DNA of 64,000 nt from Acidimicrobiia bacterium (GTDB taxonomy: Bacteria; Actinomycetota; Acidimicrobiia; Spongiisociales; UBA11373): NCBI GenBank assembly GCA_041551965.1, contig JBFELU010000002.1, positions 5,829-69,828 of the forward strand, written 5' to 3'. The notes under the pieces are model-generated. The model was not told where the DNA came from, made no database searches, and was given only the letters and a program-made list of their open reading frames with translations. Numbering within the stretch: position 1 is the stretch's first letter; the number at the start of each line of letters is the position of its first letter. The translations under genes were made by a program, and so were the position numbers. Below are positions 6,586-28,038 of this stretch, one piece after another.

Positions 6586-6593
<8 letters not shown>
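4176..6593 (-). CDS. nuoG: NADH-quinone oxidoreductase subunit G (75 kDa, molybdopterin-like)
   Basis: N-terminal 2Fe-2S and 4Fe-4S Cys motifs (HFCWHPRMKPVGMCRMCLVEV, CILCARCTRF). Track ORF extends to 6632. A TTG at 6593 with a GGGGGG Shine-Dalgarno 7 nt upstream, 2 nt after the nuoF stop, gives MSEKVTITVDGAE and is the more likely start. Confidence 0.88.
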
Positions 6594-7868
<1,275 letters not shown>

Positions 7869-7872
<4 letters not shown>

Positions 7873-10347: not shown

Positions 10348-10820
10348 CGCAGTGCCGCCTTCCCCTCCATCACCATGTCCTGGAGCGTGAGGATTCCGTG
10401 GATCAGCGATTGCGGGCCGGGGGGGCAGCCGGGGACGTAGACGTCGACGGGGACTACCTGATCGACACCCTGAACCAGGGCATTGTTGTTGAACATGCCG
10501 CCGGTCGAAGCGCAGGCCCCCATCGAGATGACCCACTTGGGCTCCGGCATCTGGTCGTAGACCTGGCGAAGCACCGGGGCCATCTTTTGGGAGAGGCGCC
10601 CGGCCACGATCATCAGATCGGCCTGGCGGGGCGAGGCCCGGAACACCTCCATGCCGAAGCGGGCCAGGTCGTGGTGGGCGGCGCCGGTCGACATCATCTC
10701 GATGGCACAGCAGGCGAGCCCGAAGGTGGCCGGCCACATGGAACGGGTGCGGGCCCAGTTGACCGCCTTGTGGAGGGTGGTGGTGAGGATGTTCTCCGAG
10801 GGCCGCTCGGCTCGCGCCAT
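10344..10820 (-). CDS. nuoB: NADH-quinone oxidoreductase subunit B (20 kDa, 4Fe-4S N2)
   Basis: [13 protein letters not shown]...[10 protein letters not shown]...YVPGCPP cluster-N2 Cys motifs, 158 aa. The start [27 protein letters not shown] at 10820 overlaps the nuoA stop. Confidence 0.9.
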
Positions 10821-11236
10821 CAGGCGGCCTCCTCGACGTCGGGGGCCACCACCCGGCGATAGCGCTCCCGGCGGGCGATGTTCCAATCGAGCGCCCCACG
10901 GCGCCACACGTAGACCAGGGTCTCGATCAGCAGGAAGGTGAAGATCCCCACTGCGGCCACGCCCGGCCAACCGAGTGTCTCGAATCGCACCGCCCAGGCG
11001 AAGAGGAACACGATCTCGATGTCGAAGATCACGAACAGCATCGCCACCAGATAGAACTTCACGGGGAACCGCTGGACCGGCTCCTGGAGCGGCACGATGC
11101 CGCACTCGTAGGGCTCAAGCTTCTCCGGCGTGGGGTTGCGGGGAGCGATGAGCCGGCCCAGGAGCATGACGAGGCTCGCAAAACCGAGGGCCAGGAGGAA
11201 CATGATGGCGATCGGCAGGTAGTCGGTCAGCGTCAT
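10820..11236 (-). CDS. nuoA: NADH-quinone oxidoreductase subunit A
   Basis: 138 aa protein with 3 TM helices ([27 protein letters not shown]...PYECGIVP). It is the first gene of the operon, with a GGAG Shine-Dalgarno 8-11 nt upstream of its ATG. Confidence 0.9.
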
Positions 11237-11407
11237 GTGGCTTGCTCCACGAATGTGGAGGCTAGCGGGTCGATGGGGCGGTTCGGCCCGGTCCTCGAAT
11301 CCGTCTAGGCCAACGCGACTTGGTGCTCCGAAAGGAATGTCATCGGGCTGGGTTTGGTCAGTTCACCGCTTCCGGGTGCGACGTGCTCAGCAGGCCGGAA
11401 GGGAGGC

Positions 11408-14400
11408 TCAGCCGCCAACGGTGATCGTGAAGATCTGCACGGCCGAAACGTCGATCCCACCGTCGGCGGTGCCGCCGTCGTCGCGGATCCGGATCTCGAG
11501 GGTGGCCGTGCCGATGCCGACCGCGACGGGAGTGAAGGTGAGGGTCCCATCACCGGCCACTGCGGGCAGCACATCGAAGAGACCCGGGTTGTCGTTGGCA
11601 GTCACTTCGAAGGTGAGCACCTGCCAGGCCTCATCCGGGGGACCGGCGACGATCCCGGTTCCCCAGGCGGCCGAGTAGGCGCCCGAACCTTCGGTCACCG
11701 TCACGTCGGGACCCTTGGTGAACCGGGGAACGTCGTTCACCGGCGTCACCACGATGGTGAGCATCACGGTGGGAGAGGTGTCCTCGCCGCCGTCTGCGGT
11801 CCCGCCGTCGTCGCGGAGCCGGATACCGATGAAGGCGGTGCCGGCGGCGTCGGCGGCGGGGGTGAAGCTCAGCGTGCCGTCGAGGGCGACGGCCGGGGGC
11901 GTGGCGAACAGGTCGGCATTGGAGTTGGCCACGACCTCGAAGGAGAGCGCCTGGCCGGCCTCGTCGGCCGGACCGGCGGTCATGCCGGTGGCCCAGGCCG
12001 CGGCATGGGCGCCCGAGTCCTCGGCGATCACCACGTCGAAGCCCCGATCGAAGGCGGGGGCGTCGTTCAACGCGCCGACCGCCACCGTGACCGTGGCGGT
12101 GGCGTATCCCCCGAGACCGTCGGTGATCGAGTAGGTGAAGGTGTCGGTGCCGGAGAAGTCGGCCGGAGGCTCATAGCGATAGCTGCCGCCGCCCACATCG
12201 GTGACCGTGCCGCCCTGAGCGGTCGCCACATCGAATCCCGACAGCGTCACCGGATCCAGATCGGCATCGGTGTCGTTGGCCAGCCAATCGCCCGCGTCCG
12301 AGAACACGATGGCCCCGTCCTCGAAGACCGGGAAGGGTCCGTCGGAGGTCGCGACCGGCGGGTTGTTCGTGGTGGCGTTGTTGGCGCCGCCCACGCTCGT
12401 CACCCGGGTCCCGAAGGCATCGGTGTCGATCGTGAGGGCCGCAGCGGCACAGGTCGCCGCCCCGGAGGTTGCCGGCTCCCAGCAGAAGCTGTCGTCGGCG
12501 TCCTGACCGTTGGGGGCGAGAGACAGCGATTGGCCGAACGCGACCGGGATCAGCGCCCCCTCGTTGTTGGGCAGCGGATCCCAGACCCCGAGGGCGTCGG
12601 GCGGGTTTCCGTTGCGGTTCGCCGCAGTGTCGGGCCCCCAGGCCACGAAGTCGACCAGTTCGTATCCCTCGTCGTACAGCCACAGCTCGTCGCCGGCGGA
12701 ATCGAGGAGCGTGGAGCCGCCGGCCCACAGCTCGAGATCGGTCCCGCCCACCACGTTGGTGAAGCCCGGGTTCGTCGTGGTCTGGTCGACCCCCAACCAC
12801 AGCACCGCATAGCCGCCCGCCGGGATCACGCTCCCGCCGGGGAAGGCATAGGTGAACGAGGCGGGAGCGTCGAAGGACCCGGTGATGTGGTCCGAATCGG
12901 ACAGCATCCACCCCGACACGTCGAGCGGGTGCCCGGAGGCGTTGTAGAGCTCGACGAACTCGTCGTTCTCGATGATGCCTTCCAGTCCCGTGCTCTGCTC
13001 GAAGAGAACCTCATTGATCACGGCCCGGCCCGCTTCCGGCGACAGGACGTAGTCGGTCACCGTCACGGTGACGGTCGCCGTGTCGGTCAGCGCACCGTCG
13101 GTGACGTCGTACGTGAAGGTGTCGACCCCGATGAAGGTGCCGTTGGGGGTGTAGGTACACCCGTTGGCGTCACATGTCACGCTGCCCTGAGCGGTGGCCG
13201 TCGGTCCGGACGGCACGATGCTGAGAGCGTCGCCGTCGGCGTCGGTGTCGTTGTCGACCAGTTCGGCGGCCGGGATCACCAGCGTGGCGACGAGGGCCAC
13301 CTCGAAGTCGGCCGCCGTGTCGCCGCCGTCGGGATCATCACCGGCCAGCGGGGCGTCGGCGACCGGGGTCACCGCGATCAGCACGGCGCCGGTGGCCGGA
13401 TCGGTGCCGTCGGTGACCGAGTAGGTGAACGTGTCGGCCCCGGCGAAGTCGGCGGGCGGGTCATAGCGGTACGACCCGGCGCCGAGATCGGTGACCGTGC
13501 CCCCGGCGGCGGTGATCGCATCGAACCCGGTGAGGGTGATGGCGCCGCCCTCGATGTCGGTGTCGTTCCCCAGCCAGTCGGTGGCCGCGGTGAAGGTGAG
13601 CGGGGTGTCCTCGGCGGTGGTGTACCAATCGCCGGCGGCGTTGGGGGCGTCGTTGACGGCCGACACCGTGACGGTGACCGTCGCGGTATCGCTGTCGGTG
13701 CCGTCGCTCACGGTGTAGGTGAAGGTGTCGGTCCCGCCGAAGTGGGCCGGCGGGGTGTAGGTGTAGGTGCCGTTGCCGTGGTCGACGACGGACCCGCCCG
13801 CGCTGGAGATCCCGTCGAAAGCGCTCACCGTGAGCGGATCGGCGTCGGGATCGGTGTCGTTCCCCAGCCAGTCGGTGGCGGCATGGAACAGCTTGGGAGT
13901 GTCCTCGTCGGTGGCCGCCGAGTCGTCGGTCGCTTCTGGTGGGTCGTTGACCGCACCGACGCTCACCGTCACGGTGGCGGTGTCGGTGCCGCCTGCTCCG
14001 TCGGACACCGTGTAGGTGAAGGTGTCGCTGCCGTTGAACCCTGCCGCCGGGGTGTAGGTATAGGTGCCGTCGAGGTTGTCGACGATGGTGCCGCCCGCGG
14101 TCGACGCGGCATCGAACGCCGTGATGGTGAGCGGGTCGTTCTCGGGGTCGGTGTCGTTCCCCAGCCAATCGGTCGAGGCGGTGAAGACCTTGGGGGTGTC
14201 CTCGTCGGTCGAGGCGGTGTCGTCGACGGCATCGGGCGGATCATCGACGGCGGTGACGGTCACCGTGACGGTGGCGGTGCCGGTGTTCCCGGCGGCGTCG
14301 GTGGCGGTGTAGGTGAAGGTGTCTTCGCCGGAGAACTCGGCGGCCGGGGTGTAGGTGTAGGAGCCGTCCAGGTTGTCGACGATGGTGCCGCCTTCCTTCG

Positions 14401-17470: not shown

Positions 17471-18709
17471 CTAGGGCTCGGGGCCGACTTGGACGATCCG
17501 CTCGACGACCCGGTAGGCCTCTTCCGCCATGTGGTGCTCCCCGGGTCGCAGCAGGTTGGCCATCACCCGCAGGACCCACTCCATCAGCGGGCGGGACCGC
17601 AGCCCGATGCGGGTGAGGGCCTTCATCACACCCGGCCGGCCGATCGCTCTCACGAAGGCTCGAGACGTTCGGTAGTAGAGGCCGTAGGTGTCATCGAGCT
17701 CGTAGCGATAGCCGTGGAGCAGCGACGCGTCTCCGGCGGCGAGGGCGGCATGCACGTGCCGGGCGGCGATCCGGCCGGTCTCGTAGGCGTAGGCGATGCC
17801 CTCCCCGTTGAAGGGATTGACGGCGCCGGCGGCGTCACCCACCAAGACCCAGTTGGGACCGACCTTGGGACCCACCGAGAACGCCATCGGGAGCTTCCCG
17901 CCGCGTGGCTCGCTCACCTTCGAGTGAGGGCCGAGATCCCAGTACTCGGGTGCCGTCACCTCGAGCGCCGTCATCAGCACCGAGGTGTTGACATCCTTCC
18001 AGCGGTGGAAGGTCGACAACACACCGACCCCGACGTTGACGGTGCCGTCGCCCAGCGGGAAGACCCATCCGTAGCCCGGCACGGTGGCTCCCTCGGCATC
18101 TCGGAGATCGAGGTGACTCTCGATGTATCGGTCGTCGGAGCGAGGGCTGGCGTAGTAGCCGCGTGCGGCGAGCCCGAACGGCAGGTGCCGGTCCCTCTCG
18201 GCCGACAGTGACCGGCCGAACCGGCTCAGCGAGCCGTCGGCGACGACGACGATCCGGGGAGAGACGACCTCGCGATCCTCCCCCGCCACCAGCTCCACCG
18301 CAGTGAGGCGACCTTCGTCGAGTACCGGCTTGGCCTCCGTGCCGGCCCGCAGCACGGCACCCTGCTTCTCGGCCAGGCGAGCGACCTCCCAGTCGAGATC
18401 GGCCCGGCGAAGCACGCCACCCCAGTTGGGGTAGACCGGGTGGTCGGGCCATTCCAGCTCGAGCATGAGGTCGCCCGAGTAGGCGCGCAGACCACCGACC
18501 CGGTGGAACTCCGGCAGAGAGAAATCGAAGCCCATGTCCTCGAGTTGGCGGATGGAACGGGGGGTGAGGCCATCGCCACACGGCTTGGGACGGGGGTACT
18601 CCTTCTTCTCGGCCACGAGGACGGAGTGGCCCTCCCGGGCCAGCCAGTGAGCCGCGGCGGCGCCTCCCGGTCCACCGCCGACGACCAGCACGTCGAGTCG
18701 ATCGGCCAT
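17471..18709 (-). CDS. Geranylgeranyl reductase family FAD-dependent oxidoreductase (MenJ-like)
   Basis: MADRLDVLVVGGGPGGAAAAHWLAREGHSVLVAEKKEYPRPKPCGDGLTP is an FAD Rossmann plus GGR-family signature, 412 aa. The 66-aa Ser/Pro-rich N-terminal extension in the track ORF is not homologous. Confidence 0.85.
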   Translation of the reverse strand: MADRLDVLVVGGGPGGAAAAHWLAREGHSVLVAEKKEYPRPKPCGDGLTPRSIRQLEDMGFDFSLPEFHRVGGLRAYSGDLMLELEWPDHPVYPNWGGVLRRADLDWEVARLAEKQGAVLRAGTEAKPVLDEGRLTAVELVAGEDREVVSPRIVVVADGSLSRFGRSLSAERDRHLPFGLAARGYYASPRSDDRYIESHLDLRDAEGATVPGYGWVFPLGDGTVNVGVGVLSTFHRWKDVNTSVLMTALEVTAPEYWDLGPHSKVSEPRGGKLPMAFSVGPKVGPNWVLVGDAAGAVNPFNGEGIAYAYETGRIAARHVHAALAAGDASLLHGYRYELDDTYGLYYRTSRAFVRAIGRPGVMKALTRIGLRSRPLMEWVLRVMANLLRPGEHHMAEEAYRVVERIVQVGPEP

Positions 18710-18752: not shown

Positions 18753-19619
18753 CTACTCGCCGGCGGCGCCCTCGTCGATCTCGGCGAGACCGCAGTCGAC
18801 GAGAGCCTCGTCGAGTGACTGGCCGCCGAACTGGACCCGTTCGTAGAGGACCACGGCCCGGATCTCCTCTTCGGAAAGGGCGCCCTGGAAGCCGGGCATC
18901 TGGGCACCGCTGCCGCCGACCGGCTTTTCGGTGGCCCCGTAGGTCGACTCGGGCCAGTCGGCCGTGCCGAGGGTCACCCAGTCGACCTGAGCCTGGCACT
19001 GGCCCGGAGGGAAGGTCTGCAACAGGGCCCCACCGGTGAATCCGGGGAAGTTGCCTGCACCGCCCCCGCCCTCACCGTGGCACGCGGCACAGGTGGCGTA
19101 TTCGAGGCTCCCGATCGAGAAGAAGTCGGTCAACGAGAGCCCGTACGGGCTGCCGTCGCAACCCACGGCGACGCCCGAAACCGGATCGACCGCCAGCCGC
19201 CCGGCATCGCCGCAGTTGGGGCCGTTGGGGAAGAAGAGGGCATAGCCGATGGCAAAGGCCGGCACGATCATGAACAAAACCACCAGCCAGCGAGGAATGG
19301 CACCGGCAGCCACCGCGTCCTCCTCGCTCTCGTAGCGGGGTTCCTCCTCGGAGATCACTTCGGGGGCCGGAGGAGCCTCCACTCCGATCACCTCGACCTC
19401 GGGTCCCTCGGCCGGGGCCGGGGCGGCCGGAGCCTCGCCGGTCGGCTCGGCGGCAGGTGCGGTGGATTCGGCGGGAGCAACCGCCTCGCCGCCCCCCCAA
19501 GCCGCCAGCACCGATTCCATGGAAACGCCCTGGGCCTTGGCCCGCGCCTCGGCGGAACGTAGCACCAGCACCTCGGGAGTACCGAGTGCGGCGGCTGCGG
19601 CGGCGAGAAGTTCTTCCAT
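18753..19619 (-). CDS. Membrane-anchored monoheme c-type cytochrome (CcoP-like)
   Basis: Single CAACHGE heme-binding motif and one TM helix (IPRWLVVLFMIVPAFAIGYALFF). The start MEELLAAAAAALGTPEV at 19619 lies 4 nt after the upstream stop. The N-terminal segment EVLVLRSAEARAKAQGVSMESVLAAW resembles the repeat motif of the subunit IV-like protein at 23541. Confidence 0.8.
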   Translation of the reverse strand: MEELLAAAAAALGTPEVLVLRSAEARAKAQGVSMESVLAAWGGGEAVAPAESTAPAAEPTGEAPAAPAPAEGPEVEVIGVEAPPAPEVISEEEPRYESEEDAVAAGAIPRWLVVLFMIVPAFAIGYALFFPNGPNCGDAGRLAVDPVSGVAVGCDGSPYGLSLTDFFSIGSLEYATCAACHGEGGGGAGNFPGFTGGALLQTFPPGQCQAQVDWVTLGTADWPESTYGATEKPVGGSGAQMPGFQGALSEEEIRAVVLYERVQFGGQSLDEALVDCGLAEIDEGAAGE

Positions 19620-19623
19620 CGAG

Positions 19624-21531
19624 CTACTCCAGTCCCGCCACGTAGACGGCGAGAGCCGCCCGTTCATCGGCGGACAGGTGATCGAATGCCGGCATCGTCG
19701 ACCAGGGGCGGACCGCCCGCGGATCGGCCAGGTAGTCCGTCAGGGCGGCGGCATCGCCGGCGAACTGCCTGCTTCCGGCATGAGCGAGGTCGGGACCGAT
19801 CCGCATGAGACCCAGCAGATCGACGTCGTCGTTGGCATAGTCGCCGACCACCGAGACCGGACCCAGGCCCACGTCGGTCACGATCCCCCGCACCTGCTGT
19901 GTGTGGCAATACCAGCAACCTTCCCGGACGTAGAGGTCACGCCCGAGGGAACCGACGGGTTCCTCTTCGTGGGGACGGGTCGCCTCGGCGAGAAGCGAGG
20001 GAGGATCCCCGGTATCGGCCGCCGGGAGCACCACCACCGACACCGCCACGACGACGAACACCACTGCAATGCCGCGGAGGATGGTGCGGAGCGGAGCACG
20101 GGGGCCGTCGACCCCGACGTCCTCATCGAGACCGGCTCCGCCCAGCGTGACCAGGAAGCCGAGCAACAAGAAGAGGGCGGCGATGACCACCAGGCCGAGC
20201 CCGACCACCTGGGTCACCTGCAACCCCTCCAGTGGCACCACGGAGCTGCGAAAGGCTTCGCCGACATTGGCCGCCGAGTCCGGGCTCACCGACCCGACCC
20301 AGGTGTAGCCCTGCTGGAGACCGCCGATCCAACGAGAGGCGAGGACCGTGCCCAGCCCCGCCGCCAACGCCCCGATCTGCACGGCGCCGAGAGCACGGGG
20401 CCACGAACGATTCGAAGCCGCATGAACGGCGGCAAAGGCAAACGCCGTGGCGGCGCCGAAGAGCGCCAGGACCTCGACGGATCCCTCCCACAGTGTGAAG
20501 TGGAGGACCGAACTCGCACCGCGAAGCGACCCGATGAAGAGATGGATCGCCGTGATCACCACCAAGCCGACACCGATGACCGACAACTGGACCGATCGCG
20601 ACTCTGAGACCACCGCCCACCGCCCCCGCAGCGCGTGCGCGAAGTCGGCGGCGATGGTGAACGCCGCCACGATGAGACCGGCGCCGAAAAGCACCGGCAC
20701 CGTCTCGAGCCAGTCCGGCGTCGGTCCGTATTGGAGCTCCCGAGGAGCCATCCACAGCCAGGAGAAGAGCAGCGACCAGAAGCCGATCGCACCGAGCCGA
20801 GGATGAAAGGACCAACCGGTCGACCGGCCGACCAGGTAGTAGGCGATACCGATGCCGAGCATCGCCGGGCCGAGGCCGCCGATCACCGTGGCGGCGAACC
20901 GCCCCTGCAGTGCCGCAGGAACACCGTCGAGCCCGGGGATCGCTCCGGTCACGAAGCCCGCCCATTGCAGCCAAAGTCCGGCCACGACATACCAGGCCGC
21001 CGTGGGCAGCCCCTCGGTCGACCCCCGCACGGCTCGCGTGACGGCCGCGGCCATTGCCAACAAGCCGACTGCGACCGCGGCGTCGGACCACCAGGGGAGC
21101 TCGAGCAACCGGCCGCCGGCGCTCTCACCGAGGAGGATGCCCGCCGTTCCCGCGCCGAGACCACCCGCGACCGCCAGCAGGCCACCCACGGTCAATGCAG
21201 GGGCCGGCCGTTGCCCGCCGAGCCGGGGAATCACCCAGATCGCACCACCGGCCAGGCCGAGAGTGAGCCAACCCACCACCACGGCATTCAACGACGCGGG
21301 CAGGAGCCGCCCGTACGCGAGGTACTCCTCTCCGGCCAGGAAGTCGGGCCAAACGAGCTTGGCCGCAGCGGCGGCATACGCGGCCGAGCCGATCAACAGC
21401 AGCACGACGGCCACCGCCAGGTAGAGGCGGGCGATCCCGGACGGAGCCATACCGGTGGCGGCGTTCGGGGATTCGATGGTGTCGGTGGCGGGCACTCCCC
21501 CGTCCCTCCGTCGTGTGTCGGCCGAGAACAT
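19624..21531 (-). CDS. Fused CcoN-like 12-TM domain plus CcoO/FixO-like monoheme cytochrome c (cbb3-type oxidase-like; catalytic His ligands apparently absent)
   Basis: 636 aa from the ATG at 21531 (MFSADTRRRDGG); the upstream part of the 1027-aa track ORF is an artifact overlapping plus-strand genes. A ~450 aa polytopic domain with a WW motif is followed by a TM anchor, then RDLYVREGCWYCHTQQVRG...IGPDLAHAG...RPWSTMPAF. This matches the CcoO signature (IYIREGCYxCHSQ...GPDL...MPsY). The membrane domain has only 5 His in total, no HH pair, and the WW motif is followed by SD rather than GHNA. Confidence 0.72.
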   Translation of the reverse strand: MFSADTRRRDGGVPATDTIESPNAATGMAPSGIARLYLAVAVVLLLIGSAAYAAAAAKLVWPDFLAGEEYLAYGRLLPASLNAVVVGWLTLGLAGGAIWVIPRLGGQRPAPALTVGGLLAVAGGLGAGTAGILLGESAGGRLLELPWWSDAAVAVGLLAMAAAVTRAVRGSTEGLPTAAWYVVAGLWLQWAGFVTGAIPGLDGVPAALQGRFAATVIGGLGPAMLGIGIAYYLVGRSTGWSFHPRLGAIGFWSLLFSWLWMAPRELQYGPTPDWLETVPVLFGAGLIVAAFTIAADFAHALRGRWAVVSESRSVQLSVIGVGLVVITAIHLFIGSLRGASSVLHFTLWEGSVEVLALFGAATAFAFAAVHAASNRSWPRALGAVQIGALAAGLGTVLASRWIGGLQQGYTWVGSVSPDSAANVGEAFRSSVVPLEGLQVTQVVGLGLVVIAALFLLLGFLVTLGGAGLDEDVGVDGPRAPLRTILRGIAVVFVVVAVSVVVLPAADTGDPPSLLAEATRPHEEEPVGSLGRDLYVREGCWYCHTQQVRGIVTDVGLGPVSVVGDYANDDVDLLGLMRIGPDLAHAGSRQFAGDAAALTDYLADPRAVRPWSTMPAFDHLSADERAALAVYVAGLE

Positions 21532-21639
21532 TAGCCCCACCGTCCGAGGTCCACGCGGGGCGGGACGATTGTCTCGAACAGACCGGGCGGCGTCAAAGCA
21601 CGTCGGCCCGGTTCTCCCCCGGGCGGCGGGGCGCGTACA

Positions 21640-22290
21640 ATGTCGCCGCTTTCGGAGGAGGAGCCCGGCCGCGTGACCGAGCAGCAACGCGTCAGGATCG
21701 GCATCGCCGGAATCGGCGCAGGCTCGGTGCTGCTCGTGGTCGGGGTGCTGATCGCTCACTTCACGGGGCTGGCTGAAACCGACGGAGTGGGCCGGGAGAT
21801 CTACCCCCACATCCCCCGATGTCTGCCGTGGGAAGACGATCCCGCCAAGTGCTGGATGCTGCCGACGGGAGGGCAGATCATCGCGTTCGTCGGCAGCCAG
21901 CTGCTCCTGGCCGGAATCGTGCTCGGCTGGATCCTGGGGCGGCCCCTCACCTGGGCCCGGGCCTCCGCGGCCGCCATGCTTTTCACGGTCGAGGCGATCC
22001 TCCTCTTCGGCGTGGTCCCCAATCAGTGGCTCACGCTGGCGCAGGGGACCTTCGAGTGGACCGAGCAGAAGATCGCCTTCACGTTGCCGCGATGGCTCGT
22101 GCTCAACAACGAGGTCGGAATCTCCTACGGGGCGATCAAGGATCTCGTCTCCGGCGGCTACTCGGCGGTGATGCTCGGCGTGATCGCCGTCACCGCGTAT
22201 CAGTTGCAGGAGCGGGCCAAGCGCAAGGATGAGCCGCCGCCCCCGCGGATCTCGGCCTACGGTCGACCGATGGTGAAGGGAGAGCGCTAG
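21640..22290 (+). CDS. Integral membrane protein (4-5 TM), first gene of the bc-type complex operon
   Basis: Hydrophobic 216 aa protein with high GC3. An alternative GTG start at 21673 follows a GGAGGAGG Shine-Dalgarno; a TACAAT -10-like hexamer lies at 21635-21640. Confidence 0.6.
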
Positions 22291-22740
22291 ATGGCGAAGA
22301 CGGACGTTTGGTTCGAGACGCCCCCTTTCCGCGACGACTACCAACTCGCCGTCGTCGACGAGCAGTACCTTCTCGACGCCGTCAAGCCGAAGCAGTTCCT
22401 CCACATCGACCAAAGCGAGTGCATCCTCTGCGAAGGATGCGTCGACATCTGCCCGTGGAAGTGCATCCACTACCTCTCGATCGACGCCATCGCCGAATCG
22501 TCCAACGTCGACGACCCTCGCGCCGACGAGGGCAATCGGGGCTTCTTCGTGGTCGACGAGGACGAGTGCACCCGTTGTGCGCTGTGTGTGGACCGCTGCC
22601 CCACCGGCGTGATCAGCCTCGGCAAGTTCGCCGGGTCGCTGGCGGACCAGGCCGACCGGCGGGGTGTGGAGGCACCGTGGGAGGTCGACAGCGGGCAGCG
22701 CGACCACAAGAACGGCTACGCATACGGAATGCGGTTCTAG
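22291..22740 (+). CDS. 2x[4Fe-4S] ferredoxin-domain protein
   Basis: Two cluster motifs, [12 protein letters not shown] and [16 protein letters not shown] overlap with the upstream gene. Confidence 0.8.
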
Positions 22741-22748
22741 GAGGAGAG

Positions 22749-23528
22749 GTGGCAGACAACGGCAACGGCAGGGTGCGGCTGGGCGAACGGATCGCCCACG
22801 TGACCGATCGGGTCCGCGACAGCGAGGTGTGGACCAGCATCTTCCGGCCCGGATCCCCGTTCCGCAAGGGCTACGCCGACAGCCCCCGGAATCGGTCCTA
22901 CGTGATCATGAACAACGTGCTGTATCACCTCCACCCGGTGAAGGTGAAGCGGCACGCGGTGCGCCTCTCCTACACCCTCTGTCTCGGCGGGTTGAGCTTC
23001 TTCCTCTTCATCCTGCTCACGATCACCGGCATCTTCCTGATGTTCTATTACACCCCCACCTCCCCCGACGCCTACACCGACATCGCCGAGTTGTCGACCG
23101 GAGTGGCGTTCGGGCAGTTGGTTCACAACATCCACCGATGGGGCGCCCACCTGATGGTCATCACCGTGTTCCTGCACATGACACGTGTCTTCTATCACGG
23201 TGCCTACAAGCCGCCGCGGGAGTTCAACTGGGTGGTCGGCGTCGTCTTGCTCTTCCTCACCCTGCTCCTCTCGTTCACCGGCTATCTGCTCCCCTGGGAC
23301 CAATTGGCACTTTGGGCAGTCACGGTGGGCTCGAACATGGCCGGCTACACCCCGGTGTTCGGAAACCAGGTCAGCTTCGTCCTCCTCGGTGGCATCGAGG
23401 TCGGAGCCCCCACGCTTCTGCGTTTCTACGTGCTCCATGTGCTGGCTCTTCCGTTCCTGATCGTGATCTTCATGGCCGTCCACTTCTGGCGAGTGCGCAA
23501 GGACGGCGGCATCTCGGGACCCCTCTAG
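22749..23528 (+). CDS. qcrB: Cytochrome b6-type subunit of menaquinol:cytochrome c reductase (b6c/bc complex)
   Basis: GTG start at 22749 after a GGAGGAG Shine-Dalgarno. Strong similarity to PetB: FYCLGG..., [44 protein letters not shown]...[23 protein letters not shown], ending ...[10 protein letters not shown]. Confidence 0.9.
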
Positions 23529-23540: not shown

Positions 23541-24632
23541 TTGTCAGACATCCCCGAGTCGCTGCTTCGTCGCTCCGCCGAGGCCAAGGCCAAGGCCACC
23601 GGACGCCCCGTCGAGGAGATCCTCGCCGAGATGAAAGGCGAGGCCCCACCGGAGCCCGCCGAAGCGGCCCCGACCCCGACCGATGAGCCGGCCGCCGCTC
23701 CCGAGAGCGTCGCCGAAAAGGCGGCTGCGGCGACCGCGCAATTGCCGGATCACCTGTTGCGCCGCTCCGCCGAGGCCAAGGCCAAGGCCCAGGGACGACC
23801 GGTGGAGGAGGTCCTCGCCGAGTTGAAGGCGTCGGGCGCCGCCACCCCGCCCCCGCTACCCGAGAAACCCGCCCCCGAAGAGGCGGTTCCCGCGGCCGCC
23901 CCGGCGGCGCAGGCCGACCCCGAGCAAGCCGCCGCCGCCGCCAAAATGCCTGAGAAACTATTGCGCCGCTCCGCCGAGGCCAAGGCCAAGGCCACCGGAC
24001 GCCCCGTCGAGGAGATCCTCGCCGAACTCAAGGGCGAGGCCGCCCCCGCCGCACCGGCTCCCGCGGCCGCCCCGGCGGCGCAGGCCCCGGCAGCGGCCCC
24101 CGCGCCCCAGCCGAGCCTCCCCCCGGTGCCGGAGGGGGTCCGCACCCAGCGCCTCCTCACCGTCGTCAAGGCCAAGGCGATCCAGCAGGTCAAGGCCGAG
24201 CCCACCGACAAGGTGAACGTGTGGCCTCACCTGCTGGCCATCGAGTTCGTGGCCCTCTTGGCGGTGACCGCGCTCCTGGTGATCTTCTCGGTGTTCCAGG
24301 ATGCGCCGCTCCTCGAGCTGGCCAACCCGAACGACCAGCCCAATCCCTCGAAGGCTCCCTGGTACTTCCTCGGGCTGCAGGAACTGCTGTCCTACTTCGA
24401 CCCGCAGGTCGCCGGAGTGCTGATCCCCGGCCTGGGACTCGCCGGCCTGGCGATCATCCCCTACATCGACCGGAACCCCTCGACGCGGCCGGCCGACCGC
24501 AAGTTCGCCATCATGCTGTTCACGTTCTTCGTGGTGGCCTCGGCGATCCTCACGATCATCGGCTCCTTCTACCGGGGGAAGGGGTTCAACTTCACGTTCC
24601 CCTGGAGAGACGGGATCTTCTTCGACCTATGA
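23541..24632 (+). CDS. Subunit IV (PetD-like) of the b6c-type complex, with a ~210-aa N-terminal extension carrying three tandem ~65-aa repeats
   Basis: The C-terminal ~150 aa (KAPWYFLGLQELLSYF...PGLGLAGLAIIPYIDRNP) matches PetD/subunit IV. The N-terminal part carries three copies of LLRRSAEAKAKA[TQ]GRPVEE[IV]LAE[ML]K[GA]... Confidence 0.85.
   Translation: MSDIPESLLRRSAEAKAKATGRPVEEILAEMKGEAPPEPAEAAPTPTDEPAAAPESVAEKAAAATAQLPDHLLRRSAEAKAKAQGRPVEEVLAELKASGAATPPPLPEKPAPEEAVPAAAPAAQADPEQAAAAAKMPEKLLRRSAEAKAKATGRPVEEILAELKGEAAPAAPAPAAAPAAQAPAAAPAPQPSLPPVPEGVRTQRLLTVVKAKAIQQVKAEPTDKVNVWPHLLAIEFVALLAVTALLVIFSVFQDAPLLELANPNDQPNPSKAPWYFLGLQELLSYFDPQVAGVLIPGLGLAGLAIIPYIDRNPSTRPADRKFAIMLFTFFVVASAILTIIGSFYRGKGFNFTFPWRDGIFFDL
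23553..24041 (+). repeat. Three in-frame tandem coding repeats (~190-210 nt each) within the subunit IV gene
   Basis: Copies 1 and 3 share a run of roughly 50-60 identical nucleotides. The exact span was not determined, and the repeat boundaries differ (ctgcttcgtcgctcc versus ctattgcgccgctcc) (cgctccgccgaggccaaggccaaggccaccggacgccccgtcgaggagatcctcgccga), while copy 2 has diverged. All three encode LLRRSAEAKAKAxGRPVEE. Confidence 0.75.
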
Positions 24633-25405
24633 CCGTGCTCGTCATCGCCTTCGTCGCCATCGCCGTCGTCCTGGCGGCGGCCCTGTTCACCGTGGCGTGG
24701 CGCCGCGAGGACGCGGTGTCCGCTCCGGTCGAACGACCGAGGAGGGTGCGCCGCACCCGGGAGCCGGAACCGGCACCCGAGCCCGAGGCCGAGGAGGAGG
24801 TCCCGCTCGACCCGCTGGAAACACGGCCCGAGATCGACGCCGCCGGCTACGACGTCACGAGGAGACAGTTCTTCAACCGCGGCGTGCTCGGGGTCTTCGG
24901 AATCTTCCTGGCCCAATTCGGGATCGCCGCGCTCGCCTTCATGTGGCCCAAGCTCCGCTCCGGCGGGTTCGGCAGCAAGGTCAATGCCGGCAAGCTGGAG
25001 GACATCGAGAAGGAGGTGTTCCTGCCCGATGGCCGGATCGCTCCGCTCTTCGTCTCCGCCGCCCAGGCCTACGTCCTCCCGTTCCAGGGTGAGGTGGCCG
25101 GATCGTCATTCGAAGGCCTCCCCGTGGTGGCCGGCGGCTTGATCGCCTTGTGGCAGCGGTGTGTGCACCTCGGATGCCGGGTCCCGGAGTGCACCTCCTC
25201 CCAGGGCTTCGAGTGCCCCTGTCACGGATCGAAGTACAACTACCACGGCGAATACGAGGACGGGCCGGCACCCCGCAACCTCGATCGGTTCGTGGTCACT
25301 CTCAACGAGAACAACGAATTGATCATCGACACCGGCCAGGTGATCCAGACCGCCCGATCAACCACCAAGACGGCTGAGTACCCGCAGGGGCCGTCGTGCA
25401 TCTGA
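24629..25405 (+). CDS. qcrA: Rieske [2Fe-2S] iron-sulfur subunit
   Basis: CVHLGCRVPEC and CPCHGSKY Rieske boxes. N-terminal TM helix MTVLVIAFVAIAVVLAAALF. ATGA overlap with the upstream stop. Confidence 0.9.
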   Translation: MTVLVIAFVAIAVVLAAALFTVAWRREDAVSAPVERPRRVRRTREPEPAPEPEAEEEVPLDPLETRPEIDAAGYDVTRRQFFNRGVLGVFGIFLAQFGIAALAFMWPKLRSGGFGSKVNAGKLEDIEKEVFLPDGRIAPLFVSAAQAYVLPFQGEVAGSSFEGLPVVAGGLIALWQRCVHLGCRVPECTSSQGFECPCHGSKYNYHGEYEDGPAPRNLDRFVVTLNENNELIIDTGQVIQTARSTTKTAEYPQGPSCI

Positions 25406-25415: not shown

Positions 25416-26903
25416 ATGGGAATCGGTGCCTTCGTCCTGGCGCTGGCGGTGCTCGGCACGTTGGCGTGGCTGTGGTTCCTGGTGGGGTCGAGCCGGGTCC
25501 GCCGCCGCCGGGAAGCGCCGCCGGCCAATCAATCCCCTTTCATGACCGACGACGAGTTGGAGTCGCGACGGCTCAATTCCACTCTCGTCGGTGCCCTGGT
25601 CGCCAGCGCGGTGCTGGCGATCATCCTGCCCGTCTACTTCCTCGCCGAGACCGACCGCCAGGTGGCTTCGGTCGAGCACTTCGACGAGGTGGCGATCGAA
25701 CGAGGAGAGCACTGGTACGAGGAGTTCCAGTGCGGCGACTGCCACGGTCCGACCGGTGGAGGAGGAGGTGCCGACTACTTGGAGAGGCGCAGCGGCCTCA
25801 CCACATCGTGGGCGGCTCCGTCGATCAACGACGTCCTCTACCGCTATGACGCCGACGAGGTTCGCTACTGGCTGGTCTTCGGCAGGGCCGGCAGTCCCAT
25901 GCCCGCCTGGGGAACCGAGGGAGGCGGACCGCTCAACAGCCAGCAGATCGACGAACTGATCGCCTACCTCGACGCCTTCAGGATTCCCCAGGTGGAGGCG
26001 GTCTCCGAGGTCGAGGGTTCGGTGGCGAGAGAGCTCGCCCGGCTCGCCAACGCCGATGCCACCATCGCCGATGCGATCGATCGGCAGCGGGAGGAAATCC
26101 GGGCCATCGAGGAGGCACCGGCCGTCTATGCGGTGCTCTCCGACGTCGAGGAACGGCTGGCCGGGATCCTGGCCGAGACGTGCAGCGACGAATCAGCGGC
26201 CATCGTGGACAGGACCTGCGAGGAGGAGACGCCGGATCGAGACCGCGACGGTTTGCCGGACGAGGCCGAACGGCAGCTGGCGGAGCTCATCTCCTTCGTC
26301 GTGGCCGAGGCACCGCCCAGCGACGCCGCCGCCGCCCTGGAACGGGCGACGTTCGATCCGGATGCTGCGTTCTCGACGTCGGAGGGCACGACTCCGGTGG
26401 CCGACCTCGCGCTCGCCGAGGCCGTCGCCGGGGAGATCGCGACGATCGTTCGCGACCTCCGCTTGACGGTGGACTCTCAGGAACGCTTGCTGGAGACGGC
26501 AGCCGCCGGGCTCGAGTTCCTGGAGGAGGCTGCCGAGGAACGGCGCTTCGCCATCGATTTCGACGCCCTCGCCGTTGCCTTCGACGGCAACGTCTCCGAC
26601 GCCCGGCGCGGAGCCGCCCTCTACAACGCCTACTGCGCCCGGTGCCACACAGCCGGCTACTCGGCCGGGGTGGCATTCACGCAAGAGGCCGGCTCGGGTG
26701 GTTTCGGGCCGTCGCTGACCGGAGGCCGCTCGGTGGTTCAGTTCCCCGACCCGGCCGACCATCTCGGATTCATCGTCAACGGCTCCGAGAACGGGAAGGC
26801 CTACGGCGTCAACGGCGTGGGCCGGGGCTGGATGCCGGGATTCGGAGTGGTCCTCAGCGAGGAGGACCTGATGTTGATCGTCACGTTCGAGAGGACCCTG
26901 TGA
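25416..26903 (+). CDS. qcrC: Membrane-anchored diheme c-type cytochrome of the bc complex
   Basis: Two heme motifs, CGDCHG (aa ~106) and CARCHT (aa ~407), plus an N-terminal TM helix. An acidic Ala/Glu-rich segment of ~250 aa separates the heme sites. Confidence 0.85.
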   Translation: MGIGAFVLALAVLGTLAWLWFLVGSSRVRRRREAPPANQSPFMTDDELESRRLNSTLVGALVASAVLAIILPVYFLAETDRQVASVEHFDEVAIERGEHWYEEFQCGDCHGPTGGGGGADYLERRSGLTTSWAAPSINDVLYRYDADEVRYWLVFGRAGSPMPAWGTEGGGPLNSQQIDELIAYLDAFRIPQVEAVSEVEGSVARELARLANADATIADAIDRQREEIRAIEEAPAVYAVLSDVEERLAGILAETCSDESAAIVDRTCEEETPDRDRDGLPDEAERQLAELISFVVAEAPPSDAAAALERATFDPDAAFSTSEGTTPVADLALAEAVAGEIATIVRDLRLTVDSQERLLETAAAGLEFLEEAAEERRFAIDFDALAVAFDGNVSDARRGAALYNAYCARCHTAGYSAGVAFTQEAGSGGFGPSLTGGRSVVQFPDPADHLGFIVNGSENGKAYGVNGVGRGWMPGFGVVLSEEDLMLIVTFERTL

Positions 26904-27403
26904 TGCCGACCGGCCTGCGCCGCGATGAACGAGGGCTGAGCAGCCTCGAGTGGCTCGGCATCGTGTTGGCGGTGCTCATCCTGCTGTCGCTGATACCCCA
27001 GTTCCGGGCGGCACTGGACGTCTTCTACGAGAACCTGGTCGGCAAGAACAACGTGAGCCCCGACGGCGAACCGGCGCCCGGCGTCCTGGTCCGCGGTCTG
27101 ATCGTCGCCGTCGCCTCGCTGGCCGTGTTCGCCGGATCGGTCTACCTCATCAACTACACGAACCTGGGCCGGAGGCTCGCCTTCCTCGTGACCGGCACCG
27201 CCTTCTTCGGATTCCTGGCGGTCGTCGGCCTGCTCTACTCCCTCTACGCGCCGCGCGGGCTGCGGCCCACCTCGCTCGAGGGTCTCAACGCCTTTGAGCT
27301 CCGCATCCTCCCCGGGGCGTTGATGGTCGGATCGCTCATCCTGTTCGCCATGTTCCTCACCGCCCTCAACCGGTTCGAATCGGAGAGCGGGGACGACGAG
27401 TAA
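26903..27403 (+). CDS. Small polytopic membrane protein, last gene of the bc-complex operon
   Basis: 166 aa with 4 hydrophobic segments. The ATG overlaps the qcrC TGA (TGATG). High GC3. Confidence 0.6.
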   Translation: MPTGLRRDERGLSSLEWLGIVLAVLILLSLIPQFRAALDVFYENLVGKNNVSPDGEPAPGVLVRGLIVAVASLAVFAGSVYLINYTNLGRRLAFLVTGTAFFGFLAVVGLLYSLYAPRGLRPTSLEGLNAFELRILPGALMVGSLILFAMFLTALNRFESESGDDE

Positions 27404-27411: not shown

Positions 27412-28038
27412 CTAGGCGTCGGCTCCGGCCCGATGCAGGTAGTACGACAGCACCTTGAGCTCCGTCGACAGGTCGACTCGCCGCACATCCACGTCGTCGG
27501 GGACCTGGACGTGGGCGGGTGCGAAGTTGAGAATCGACTTGACACCGGAATCGGCGAGGAGGTCGGCCACCTCCTGGGCCGAGTCGGCCGGCGTGGTGAT
27601 CATCCCGATCGAGACCCGCCGTTTCTTCACCGCCTCCGCAAGCCTCTCGACCGGCTCGATCTCGAGTGAGTGGATGTGGGCCCCGACCTTGCCCGGGTCG
27701 CTGTCGAAGAGACCGACGACGACGAAGCCCTCCTCGGCGAATCCCCGGTAATTGGCGAGGGCGAGACCGAGGTTCCCCACCCCGACGATGGCCACCCGCC
27801 AATCCTGAGTGAGCCCGAGGGCCCGCCGGATCTCATAGCGGAGGTGCTCCACCTCGTAGCCGACGCCGCGTACCCCGTATGAACCGAGATAGGAGAGGTC
27901 CTTGCGGACCTTGGCGGAGTTCACCCCGGCACCGGCGGCGAGCTCCTCGCTCGAAATCCCCTCTTCGGAGACCCGATCGAGGACCTTCAGATACAGCGGC
28001 AGGCGCTGCACGGTGGCGCGGGGAACGGTCGGTTTCAC
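27412..28038 (-). CDS. rex: Redox-sensing transcriptional repressor Rex
   Basis: QRLPLYLKVL winged-helix N-terminus and AIVGVGNLGLALANY Rossmann NADH motif. GTG start. Confidence 0.85.
   Translation of the reverse strand: MKPTVPRATVQRLPLYLKVLDRVSEEGISSEELAAGAGVNSAKVRKDLSYLGSYGVRGVGYEVEHLRYEIRRALGLTQDWRVAIVGVGNLGLALANYRGFAEEGFVVVGLFDSDPGKVGAHIHSLEIEPVERLAEAVKKRRVSIGMITTPADSAQEVADLLADSGVKSILNFAPAHVQVPDDVDVRRVDLSTELKVLSYYLHRAGADA

What the first reader, a model, noticed from the sequence alone, without database searches (positions are those of the whole stretch)
19624..21531. Fused CcoN-CcoO-like protein that appears to lack the heme-copper binuclear-centre histidines
The C-terminal 150 aa is a clear CcoO/FixO monoheme cytochrome c: TM anchor, YVREGCWYCHTQ, GPDLAHAG, and Met ligand region STMPAF. 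The preceding ~450-aa 12-TM domain has CcoN-like size and a WW motif. It contains only 5 His in total, no HH pair, and WWSD where CcoN has WWGHNA. The canonical six His ligands for heme b, heme b3 and CuB therefore cannot all be present. This looks like a catalytically degenerate cbb3-type oxidase paralogue that keeps its electron-entry cytochrome. Candidate roles are pseudo-oxidase, sensor, or scaffold for the adjacent CcoP-like cytochrome and the divergently encoded bc complex.
Basis: partly seen in the sequence, partly recalled or inferred. Interest (0 to 1): 0.7.

Follow-up and report, generated by a model that had tools for sequence, protein, structure and literature searches.

The report
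Dead cbb3 oxidase keeping its cytochrome
A gene that databases name a high-affinity (cbb3-type) oxygen reductase has lost every metal-binding residue of its catalytic core, yet it is kept under selection beside a cytochrome bc complex, so it most likely acts as a membrane scaffold and electron relay, not as an oxidase.

Summary
ORF 19624-21531(-) encodes a CcoN-like 12-helix domain fused to a CcoO/FixO monoheme cytochrome c. CcoN homology is firm: Pfam COX1 scores above its cutoff, and an AlphaFold model matches solved CcoN chains at TM 0.85-0.88. All six His ligands (heme b, heme b3, CuB), the cross-link Tyr and the proton-channel residues are replaced. This holds in 39 homologues and in about 33 Acidimicrobiia species genomes, while canonical C-family genes fetched in the same scan keep them all. 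The heme c site (CxxCH, Met) is invariant.

The gene is not decaying: dN/dS is 0.06-0.24. Conservation is highest on the outer (periplasmic-side) face, where cbb3 docks its cytochromes. No new conserved polar or ligand-type residue appears in the membrane core. The gene always lies divergent from a b6-type Rieske/cytochrome b operon and upstream of a monoheme CcoP-like gene.

Best reading: a cofactor-less CcoN scaffold carrying c-type hemes, acting as the electron-exit or adaptor module of a bc supercomplex. Similar degenerate CcoN genes sit beside alternative complex III in Verrucomicrobiota. I found no paper describing this. Whether an intact oxidase exists elsewhere in the genome could not be tested.

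The parts
19624..21531 (-). Fused CcoN-like/CcoO-like ORF (635 aa from ATG 21531; probable true start GTG 21495, 623 aa)
20149..21444 (-). CcoN-like 12-TM domain (residues 30-461) with all six His ligands, the cross-link Tyr and the channel residues replaced
20011..20148 (-). Cytoplasmic linker (residues 462-480) plus the 13th TM helix, which is the CcoO membrane anchor (residues 481-507)
   Evidence: AlphaFold2 secondary structure; Pfam FixO begins at residue 490
19627..20010 (-). CcoO/FixO heme c domain (residues 508-635). CWYCH at 19903-19917; Met613 axial ligand codon at 19693-19695
18753..19619 (-). CcoP-like monoheme cytochrome c (288 aa from M17 of the ORF, 4 nt after the CcoNO stop). 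It has an N-terminal cytoplasmic RSAxARAKAxG motif, a FixP_N-like TM helix and a single CAACH
21640..22290 (+). Conserved 216-aa membrane protein of unknown family, first gene of the divergent operon
22291..22740 (+). 2x[4Fe-4S] ferredoxin-like protein with no signal peptide, start abutting the stop of the previous gene
22749..23528 (+). Cytochrome b6-type (split) cytochrome b. The start is approximate, taken from the 259-aa orthologue
23541..24632 (+). Subunit IV-like C-terminal half of cytochrome b, with three N-terminal LLRRSAEAKAKAxGRPVEE repeats
24629..25405 (+). Rieske [2Fe-2S] subunit (start approximate)
25416..26903 (+). Diheme cytochrome c (CGDCH, CARCH)
26912..27403 (+). Conserved small membrane protein (about 163 aa), last gene of the bc operon (start approximate)
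27412..28038 (-). Rex-type redox-sensing repressor gene (Pfam families precomputed for orthologues). It is present beside the operon in every locus that extends that far
17471..18709 (-). Geranylgeranyl-reductase-family flavoprotein downstream of the CcoP-like gene, usually syntenic

Best explanation
The gene encodes a non-catalytic, cofactor-less derivative of the cbb3 oxidase core.

Shown: the CcoN-like domain keeps the 12-helix heme-copper-oxidase fold and its outer docking surface. It has lost all ligands for heme b, heme b3 and CuB, the redox Tyr and the proton-channel residues. The fused CcoO domain still has everything needed to bind one His/Met-ligated heme c.

Inferred: together with the downstream monoheme CcoP-like protein it forms a membrane-anchored two-heme cytochrome c module. 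The dead CcoN serves as its platform. The module is physically attached to the divergently encoded b6-type Rieske/cytochrome b complex. Electrons leaving the Rieske centre and the diheme cytochrome c would pass through these c hemes to a separate terminal oxidase or reductase encoded elsewhere.

Inferred origin: an ancestral bc-cbb3 supercomplex gene cluster whose oxidase chemistry was lost while its wiring and architecture were kept.
For: 1. Homology and fold are those of CcoN and CcoO.

2. All six ligand columns are non-His in 39/39 homologues, in about 33 Acidimicrobiia loci and in 78 of 124 full-length representative clusters. Some members have only 1-2 His in the whole N-domain. Canonical C-family genes fetched by the same scan keep H, HN, Y, HH and HxH.

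3. In the N-domain the only H, M, C, K or Y columns conserved at 60% or more are Y73, Y181, Y231, H243, Y268 and Y409. By my topology assignment these lie in loops or near helix ends. No Met, Cys or Lys column is conserved.

4. The heme c site (C539, C542, H543, M613, P614) is invariant, and the O-domain is the best conserved part: 33% of its positions are at least 90% conserved.

5. Selection is purifying. Nei-Gojobori dN/dS is 0.06-0.24 for the N-domain and 0.06-0.22 for the O-domain in 11 pairs.

6. Positions at least 90% conserved make up 23% of the outer face, 14% of the core (Gly, Ala, Phe, Trp, Leu, Val and one Ser only) and 10% of the cytoplasmic face. Compared with canonical CcoN, the family shows only losses. 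No new conserved polar site appears.

7. Synteny is strict. The order memb216-Fd-b6-SUIV-Rieske-diheme c-memb163, divergent from CcoN(O)-like and CcoP-like, is seen in every Acidimicrobiia locus with enough flank, down to about 30% CcoN identity.

8. Canonical cbb3 genes in Acidobacteriota, Ignavibacteria/Bacteroidota, Kiritimatiellales and Symbiobacterium also sit beside Rieske/b6/SUIV genes. This points to an ancestral bc-cbb3 unit.

9. A cytoplasmic motif, RSAxARAKAxGxxxExVL, is shared by the N-termini of the CcoP-like protein (all orthologues) and bc subunit IV.

10. An apparently separate parallel exists: degenerate CcoN/FixO/cytochrome c genes follow alternative complex III in Verrucomicrobiota. 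In three loci an intact A-family COX1 comes directly after them.
Against: No biochemical or structural data exist. Physical association with the bc complex is inferred from gene order and a shared motif only.

The electron acceptor downstream of the c hemes is unidentified. No terminal oxidase lies in the 64-kb window or within 10 kb of the gene in the Acidimicrobiia loci that were fetched.

A pure scaffold role does not obviously explain keeping a whole 12-helix domain with dN/dS as low as that of the heme domain.

The bc operon already encodes its own diheme cytochrome c, so extra c hemes are not self-evidently needed.

dS values near 1-2 are close to saturation, so the dN/dS values are rough.
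Confidence: 0.55

Rival explanations
1. It is still a redox enzyme (O2, NO or another substrate) that binds hemes or metal through unconventional, non-His ligands at shifted positions.
For: The fold is intact and under purifying selection. E144, the counterpart of the Ca2+/heme-propionate ligand E122, is kept in 38/39 members. One loop His (H243) is 90% conserved.
Against: No conserved His, Met, Cys or Lys lies in any TM core column. The conserved Tyr are shared with canonical CcoN or lie near helix ends. Some members have 1-2 His in the whole domain. The only Cys in the protein are those of the CxxCH. The cross-link Tyr and the channel residues are gone. No ccoGHIS-type Cu/heme assembly genes are near the gene in any locus inspected.
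Confidence: 0.06
2. The membrane domain has taken on a new function as an ion or proton conduit or a transporter, possibly gated by the redox state of the heme c.
For: The 12-TM domain is retained with dN/dS as low as that of the heme domain. Heme-copper-oxidase scaffolds contain internal channels.
Against: The conserved core positions are Gly, Ala, Phe, Trp, Leu, Val and one Ser. No conserved ionisable residue lies in the membrane core. No family-specific polar positions were gained relative to canonical CcoN. The K-channel-type residues S240, H243, Y251 and E323 (P. stutzeri numbering) are replaced by G, G, W and a hydrophobic residue.
Confidence: 0.1
3. It is an assembly, stabilising or regulatory factor for the bc complex or for a real oxidase encoded elsewhere, and its heme c is not on the main electron path. 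This reading includes a sensor role.
For: It is divergently transcribed from the bc operon with only about 110-145 bp between the two start codons. A Rex gene flanks the operon. The CcoP-like protein and subunit IV share a cytoplasmic motif.
Against: The heme c domain is the most strongly conserved part, including canonical CcoO surface motifs. That is what one expects of a working electron carrier. No sensor or output domain is present. No Rex operator was found.
Confidence: 0.17
4. It is a decaying relic or pseudogene, or an artefact of assembly or alignment.
For: It evolves much faster than its neighbours: 30-80% identity against 82-98% for cytochrome b6 across the same loci.
Against: Intact ORFs occur in dozens of species-level genomes and in many 50%-identity clusters. 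dN/dS is 0.06-0.24. The AlphaFold2 model is confident. phmmer and MAFFT both find no His at any ligand position.
Confidence: 0.02

Closest known systems
cbb3-type (C-family) cytochrome c oxidase CcoNOP, e.g. Pseudomonas stutzeri 3MK7/5DJQ
   Same: It shares the 12-TM CcoN fold (TM 0.87, rmsd about 3 A) and the CcoO monoheme domain with a TM anchor. It also has a third cytochrome c subunit with a FixP_N-like helix, and it conserves the outer loops (GRL.P, E144=E122, GP.P.W, QQG.xW).
   Different: All six His ligands, the His-Tyr cross-link Tyr and the channel residues are replaced. The CcoP-like protein has one heme, not two. Scores are far below the NCBIfam cutoffs (66.6 vs 583 for ccoN; 68 vs 200 for ccoO).
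Naturally fused CcoNO proteins (NCBIfam PRK14485; e.g. P0043, Melioribacter roseus CcoNO, PMC5492636)
   Same: The same N-then-O fusion order, with a cytoplasmic linker and a 13th helix.
   Different: Canonical fusions keep every ligand (P0043). This protein scores 122 bits against a cutoff of 1080. In the crude tree the Acidimicrobiia fused proteins group with unfused His-less proteins, not with canonical fusions.
bc1-cbb3 respiratory supercomplexes (R. capsulatus 6XKW, P. aeruginosa 8SMR, alphaproteobacterial 9G83)
   Same: They are precedents for direct physical and electronic coupling of a Rieske/cytochrome b complex to a cbb3 module through membrane-anchored c hemes (PMC7876108, PMC10556555; hit list).
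   Different: There the cbb3 is the catalytic end point. Here the module has no catalytic centre, the bc partner is a split b6-type complex with a ferredoxin-like subunit, and association is only inferred.
Actinobacterial bcc-aa3 supercomplex (Mycobacterium/Corynebacterium; 7QHM, 9GY6)
   Same: It comes from a monoderm actinobacterial lineage in which membrane-bound c hemes, not a soluble cytochrome c, wire complex III to the oxidase (established knowledge; review PMC8361435).
   Different: It uses different proteins: QcrC diheme c, unsplit QcrB and an A-family oxidase. No dead oxidase subunit is known there.
qNOR, and cytochrome bo3 subunit II
   Same: Both are precedents inside the superfamily for a domain that keeps its fold after losing its cofactor. 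The N-terminal NorC-like domain of qNOR lacks the heme c motif. The cupredoxin subunits of bo3 and gNOR lack CuA (PMC11214002).
   Different: In those cases the accessory domain is dead and the catalytic subunit is alive. Here it is the reverse.
ACIII-linked degenerate CcoN homologues (P0042, P0044, L073, L076, L082, L083)
   Same: They are CcoN-like proteins with most ligands lost, followed by FixO-like and cytochrome c genes, and tied genetically to a quinol:cytochrome c oxidoreductase.
   Different: They are unfused and the loss is partial and variable (0-3 His kept). The partner is alternative complex III, not a Rieske/b complex. They fall in a different part of the crude tree.

Membership tests
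C-family heme-copper oxidase catalytic subunit (CcoN) | 12-TM heme-copper-oxidase subunit I fold and sequence homology | tested here: met
   Pfam COX1 scores 44 bits against a cutoff of 34.8. Foldseek to 3MK7/9G83 CcoN gives TM 0.85-0.88, E 1e-16.
C-family heme-copper oxidase catalytic subunit (CcoN) | Two His ligands of low-spin heme b (H60, H347 in P. stutzeri) | tested here: not met
   S80 and V352/V354 in the query. Ser, Ala or Gly, and hydrophobic or Gln, in 39/39 homologues.
C-family heme-copper oxidase catalytic subunit (CcoN) | His ligand of high-spin heme b3 (H345) | tested here: not met
   G350 or V352, depending on the aligner. No His within the helix X segment.
C-family heme-copper oxidase catalytic subunit (CcoN) | Three His ligands of CuB (H207, H257, H258) | tested here: not met
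   A214/T215, R264 and E265. The family consensus is Thr, Arg and a variable residue.
C-family heme-copper oxidase catalytic subunit (CcoN) | Cross-linked active-site Tyr (Y251) and proton-channel residues | tested here: not met
   Y251 becomes W258 (38/39). S240 and H243 become G. E323 becomes a hydrophobic residue.
C-family heme-copper oxidase catalytic subunit (CcoN) | NCBIfam TIGR00780 equivalog score | tested here: not met
   66.6 bits against a cutoff of 583.
CcoO/FixO monoheme cytochrome c subunit | N-terminal TM anchor, CxxCH and distal Met ligand | tested here: met
   Helix 481-507. C539, C542, H543 and M613 are invariant. Aligned to 3MK7_B and 6XKW_o.
CcoO/FixO monoheme cytochrome c subunit | Profile scores | tested here: inconclusive
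   Pfam FixO at 65.9 bits exceeds its cutoff of 29.6. NCBIfam TIGR00781 at 68 bits is below its equivalog cutoff of 200.
CcoP/FixP diheme subunit (neighbouring gene 18753-19619) | FixP_N membrane helix plus two c-type heme domains | tested here: not met
   FixP_N scores 19.4 bits, below its cutoff of 24.9. There is only one CxxCH in the query and in 24 orthologues.
Nitric oxide reductases (cNOR/qNOR) | Heme b/b3 His ligands plus three His and one Glu for FeB | tested here: not met
   The same ligand columns are empty. NOR chains are weaker structural hits than CcoN chains.
Respiratory supercomplex subunit (bc-associated) | Physical co-assembly with the Rieske/cytochrome b complex | not testable with these tools
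   Only conserved divergent synteny and a shared N-terminal motif speak for it.
Functional c-type cytochrome | Covalent heme attachment and redox activity | not testable with these tools
   The motifs are intact and invariant. Heme content is unmeasured.

The most novel reading that the evidence does not exclude
Cofactor-less heme-copper-oxidase subunit I 'pseudo-oxidases' are a widespread, unrecognised class of respiratory-chain component. The dead CcoN/CcoO/CcoP modules are obligatory structural and electronic adaptors. They bolt a quinol:cytochrome c oxidoreductase (a b6-type Rieske/b complex in Acidimicrobiia, ACIII in Verrucomicrobiota) to a different terminal oxidase. On this reading they arose more than once from ancestral complex III-cbb3 supercomplexes. 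It would follow that many 'cbb3 oxidase' calls in these lineages, and the microaerobic lifestyles inferred from them, are wrong.
Probability: 0.4. Interest if true: 0.8.

Novelty: new variant of a known kind. Interest (0 to 1): 0.7.

Why it matters
1. The six metal-ligand histidines are treated as the invariant signature of the heme-copper oxidoreductase superfamily. A 2024 survey (PMC11214002) calls gNOR the first member to have replaced even one active-site His. A large family that has replaced all six and is still under selection is a natural pseudoenzyme of one of the central enzymes of bioenergetics.

2. Public sources name these proteins 'cbb3-type cytochrome c oxidase subunit I/II', and Pfam COX1 and FixO both score them above their cutoffs. 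Automated metabolic reconstructions will therefore credit these Acidimicrobiia with a high-affinity oxidase they almost certainly lack. The same may apply to the ACIII-adjacent 'cbb3' genes of Verrucomicrobiota.

3. It makes a concrete question testable: how a monoderm lineage without soluble cytochrome c wires an unusual ferredoxin-containing b6-type complex to its terminal acceptor.

4. It gives a snapshot of how respiratory supercomplex architecture can outlive the chemistry of one of its parts.

Tried and rejected
1. Shifted-ligand hypothesis. phmmer and MAFFT disagree by 1-2 residues in helices VI and X, but neither places a His at or next to a ligand column. Rejected.

2. Alternative ligands. 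I scanned for conserved H, M, C, K or Y columns. None lies in the membrane core.

3. Pseudogene. Rejected on dN/dS.

4. Gain-of-function sites. A comparison of 75 His-less with 46 canonical sequences found only losses.

5. Second oxidase in the window. Motif scans for A-family, C-family, CuA and CydA signatures, and tblastn with an A-family COX1 and two canonical CcoN sequences, hit nothing but the locus itself.

6. Rex operator in the window. No match to TTGTGAAN6TTCACAA with up to 3 mismatches.

7. Pfam identity of the shared RSAxARAKA motif. None found; the MIF hit is a repeat artefact.

8. Literature. Eight full-text searches found no description of His-less CcoN. The 'unknown group' of Muntyan et al. 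2015 (PNAS 112:7695), cited in PMC5492636, could not be read, so it remains an unchecked possible precedent.

9. Heme pockets.

10. The neighbour-joining tree is crude and prone to long-branch artefacts. I use it only for grouping.
Full report
**1. What is at the coordinates**

The minus-strand ORF 19624-21531 is real. From the ATG at 21531 it encodes 635 aa. A GTG at 21495 is preceded by GGAGG about 10 nt upstream and gives 623 aa, the length of the 99%-identical database protein P0001, so it is probably the true start. The window is about 68-70% G+C throughout, and every close relative comes from Acidimicrobiia (Actinomycetota) metagenome-assembled genomes.

**2. The two domains**

The C-terminal 150 residues are a CcoO/FixO cytochrome c.
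- Pfam FixO gives E=4.7e-18, above its cutoff.
- The domain aligns with solved CcoO chains across the CxxCH and the Met-ligand motif.
- C539, C542, H543, M613 and P614 are invariant among 39 homologues.

Residues 30-461 are homologous to CcoN.
- Pfam COX1 scores above its cutoff (E=1.8e-11).
- TIGR00780 gives E=2e-18.
- phmmer to 3MK7_A gives E=1e-8.
- An AlphaFold2 model built on the 39-sequence alignment (pLDDT 84.5, pTM 0.89) shows 12 helices, a cytoplasmic linker and a 13th helix.
- The best structural matches to that model are CcoN chains (TM 0.85-0.88, rmsd 2.5-3.3 A, E about 1e-16). NOR, B-family and A-family subunits score lower.

**3. The ligands**

Against P. stutzeri CcoN numbering the substitutions are:

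| P. stutzeri CcoN | Role | Query |
|---|---|---|
| H60 | heme b | S80 |
| H207 | CuB | A214 or T215 |
| Y251 | cross-link Tyr | W258 |
| H257 / H258 | CuB | R264 / E265 |
| H345 / H347 | heme b3 / heme b | G350/V352 or V352/V354, depending on the aligner |

The five His of the domain (243, 299, 330, 344, 370) lie elsewhere, and the only Cys in the protein are the two of the CxxCH.

W147-W148 lie in the loop between helices III and IV, opposite 'ELEWP' of CcoN. The counterpart of WWYGHN is QGRFAATV (209-216).

The channel residues S240, H243 and E323 are also replaced.

**4. It is a family trait**

- None of 39 homologues has His at any of the six columns, and two have only 1-2 His in the entire N-domain.
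- A scan of one genome per GTDB species returned about 33 Acidimicrobiia loci with the same pattern, at 30-80% identity. Every canonical C-family gene fetched by the same scan (Acidobacteriota, Bacteroidota/Ignavibacteria, Symbiobacterium, Kiritimatiellales and others) had H, HN, Y, HH and HxH.
- An exhaustive phmmer search of 1.84 billion cluster representatives gave 39 clusters at E<=1e-30. Among 124 full-length top hits, 78 have no ligand His, 21 have one to three, one each has four and five, and 26 have all six.

**5. Not a pseudogene, but no new chemistry either**

Nei-Gojobori dN/dS in 11 orthologue pairs is 0.06-0.24 for the membrane domain and 0.06-0.22 for the heme domain. dS is near saturation, so these values are rough.

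Positions at least 90% conserved are distributed as follows:

| Region | Share of positions conserved |
|---|---|
| O-domain | 33% |
| Outer face of the N-domain | 23% |
| Membrane core | 14% (Gly, Ala, Phe, Trp, Leu, Val and one Ser only) |
| Cytoplasmic face | 10% |

The conserved outer-face residues are R75, R141, E144, Q209, Q267, E276, T277, R337, S340, T346, Q406 and Q407.

I compared 75 His-less with 46 canonical sequences.
- Residues conserved in both are structural or sit on the docking surface (R75, W88, E144, Y231, F251, W252, P270, W274, R337, T346 and several Gly).
- The canonical-only list holds all the ligands and many polar residues that are not conserved in the His-less set.
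- The list specific to the His-less set contains no charged or ligand-type residue; its only polar entry is S253.

This is a pattern of loss without gain. It argues against hidden ligands and against a new transporter function.

**6. Context**

On the minus strand, the gene is followed after 4 nt by a 288-aa protein. That protein has a cytoplasmic N-terminal motif, a FixP_N-like helix and one CxxCH, so I call it CcoP-like. A geranylgeranyl-reductase-family gene comes next, and in relatives the nuo operon follows.

Divergently, 110-145 bp away, lies a seven-gene operon:
- a 216-aa membrane protein;
- a 2x[4Fe-4S] ferredoxin-like protein;
- split cytochrome b6;
- subunit IV;
- a Rieske protein;
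- a diheme cytochrome c;
- a 163-aa membrane protein.

A Rex gene follows this operon.

The arrangement is present in every Acidimicrobiia locus that has enough flank. That includes lineages in which CcoN-like and CcoO-like are separate genes (L051, L059, L085, P0041, P0084). Across these loci cytochrome b6 stays 82-98% identical, while the CcoN(O)-like protein ranges from 30 to 80%.

Canonical cbb3 genes in several other phyla also sit next to Rieske/b6/SUIV genes. The closest canonical relatives, by CcoN identity (about 29-30%) and cytochrome b6 identity (60-62%), are Symbiobacterium and related Bacillota. The likeliest history is an ancestral bc-cbb3 gene unit whose oxidase lost its redox centres.

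The motif xxV(R/E)RSAxARAKAxGxxxExVL occurs at the N-terminus of every CcoP-like orthologue and in one to three copies at the N-terminus of subunit IV. It is the only direct sequence hint that products of the two operons share a partner or a location. It matches no Pfam family.

**7. Mechanism proposed**

Shown:
- the CcoN fold is retained;
- all canonical cofactor ligands are gone;
- the heme c site is intact;
- selection is purifying;
- the docking face is conserved;
- linkage to the bc operon is invariant.

Inferred: the dead CcoN is the membrane platform for a two-heme (CcoO domain plus CcoP-like) cytochrome c module. That module belongs to, or docks on, the b6-type complex and passes electrons on to a terminal enzyme encoded elsewhere. 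In a monoderm actinobacterium all c-type cytochromes must be membrane-bound, as in the bcc-aa3 supercomplex (PMC8361435). In cbb3 oxidases the c hemes already form the entry wire, and such oxidases are known to form supercomplexes with bc1 (PMC7876108, PMC10556555).

I put this reading at about 0.55. The narrower statement, that this protein is not an O2 or NO reductase of the heme-copper type, I put at 0.9 or higher.

**8. A parallel that supports the adaptor idea**

More distant degenerate CcoN homologues (0-3 of the 6 His kept) are encoded directly after complete alternative complex III operons and are followed by FixO-like and cytochrome c genes (P0042, P0044, L076). In three Verrucomicrobiota loci an A-family COX1 with an intact AHPEVY, WAHHMY and HFH signature comes next, followed in L076 by another membrane-protein gene that was not run against any family library. 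The literature treats ACIII-adjacent C-type genes in Verrucomicrobia as genuine cbb3 oxidases (PMC8498564).

**9. Comparison with the known, and novelty**

It works like the cytochrome c part of a cbb3 oxidase but fails the defining tests for CcoN membership: ligands, Tyr, channel residues and the equivalog score. It passes those for a FixO-type cytochrome.

The closest conceptual precedents are cofactor-less accessory domains in the same superfamily, namely the NorC-like domain of qNOR and the CuA-less subunit II of bo3 and gNOR. Here, in contrast, it is the catalytic subunit that is empty.

Murali et al. 2024 state that the active-site histidines are completely conserved in all families except gNOR, which replaces one (PMC11214002). 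Eight full-text searches found no description of His-less CcoN. One possible precedent, the 'unknown group' of Muntyan et al. 2015, could not be read.

I therefore rate it a new variant of a known kind, with interest 0.7.

**10. Limits**

- There are no biochemical data.
- Association with the bc complex and the identity of the downstream acceptor are inferred.
- No second oxidase lies in the 64-kb window, but the genome as a whole could not be searched.
- The phylogeny is crude.
- The heme pockets in the model could not be inspected.

Noticed in passing
L076:5236-16755; L073; L082; L086 (P0042); L087 (P0044): In Verrucomicrobiota-type contigs, complete alternative complex III operons are followed by a CcoN homologue lacking 3-6 of the six His ligands, a FixO-like gene and cytochrome c genes. 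In L076, L073 and L082 an intact A-family COX1 follows directly. No COX2/CuA subunit was found among the L076 ORFs scanned against Pfam (5236-15834). Published work treats ACIII-adjacent C-type genes in Verrucomicrobia as genuine cbb3 oxidases.
   Followed up: partly
window 23568-24040 (+) and 19480-19619 (-): A cytoplasmic motif, LLRRSAEAKAKAxGRPVEExLAEMKG, occurs three times at the N-terminus of bc subunit IV. A degenerate copy sits at the N-terminus of the CcoP-like protein. It is conserved in orthologues of both and matches no Pfam family.
   Followed up: partly
window 22749-23528 (+) and 23541-24632 (+): The cytochrome b6 scores above the NCBIfam cutoff for 'selenite/tellurite reduction operon b-type cytochrome ExtP' (305 vs 290 bits), so PGAP would probably give it that name. 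It carries a TLCLGG Cys like the heme ci site of b6. Subunit IV has an APWY Qo motif, which Kao & Hunte 2014 report among the split cytochromes b of deep-branching Actinobacteria.
   Followed up: no
window 21640-22740 (+) and 26912-27403 (+): A 216-aa membrane protein, a cytoplasmic 2x[4Fe-4S] ferredoxin-like protein and a 163-aa membrane protein are invariant members of the Rieske/b6 operon in all Acidimicrobiia loci. A similar ferredoxin gene precedes Rieske/b6 in Ignavibacteria/Bacteroidota and Kiritimatiellales loci. Their role in a bc-type complex is unknown.
   Followed up: partly
L031-L079 (e.g. L038:6697-14105, L033:10001-16263): Canonical cbb3 genes with all ligands lie within a few kb of Rieske/cytochrome b6/subunit IV genes in Acidobacteriota, Ignavibacteria/Bacteroidota, Kiritimatiellales, Phycisphaerales and Symbiobacterium. 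This suggests a widespread bc-cbb3 gene unit.
   Followed up: partly
proteins P0179, P0148, P0145, P0100, P0147: Some representative clusters keep partial ligand sets. P0179, for example, reads HHAQYHH: the heme ligands are kept and the CuB His pair is lost. These may be evolutionary intermediates or enzymes with different chemistry.
   Followed up: no
L011, L025, L027, L029: MAGs labelled Kiloniellaceae, Kiloniellales or Gammaproteobacteria carry the complete Acidimicrobiia-type cluster, with cytochrome b6 82-90% identical in the three loci that include it. The bins are probably mislabelled or contaminated.
   Followed up: no
window 11408-17398 (-): A 1996-aa ORF sits between the geranylgeranyl-reductase-like gene and the position of nuoA in relatives. 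Its 1992-aa orthologue in L001 carries HD/HD_5 (HD-GYP-type) domains followed by many Big_9 and cadherin-like repeats. It is absent from that position in several other Acidimicrobiia loci.
   Followed up: no
window 27412-28038 (-) and 21532-21639: A Rex-type repressor gene flanks the bc operon in every locus that extends that far. No Rex operator consensus (up to 3 mismatches) occurs anywhere in the window, including the divergent promoter region.
   Followed up: yes
window ~31835 (-): A further CxxCH (CSLCH) lies in a long open frame (463 codons between stop codons), outside the respiratory cluster. It was not examined.
   Followed up: no
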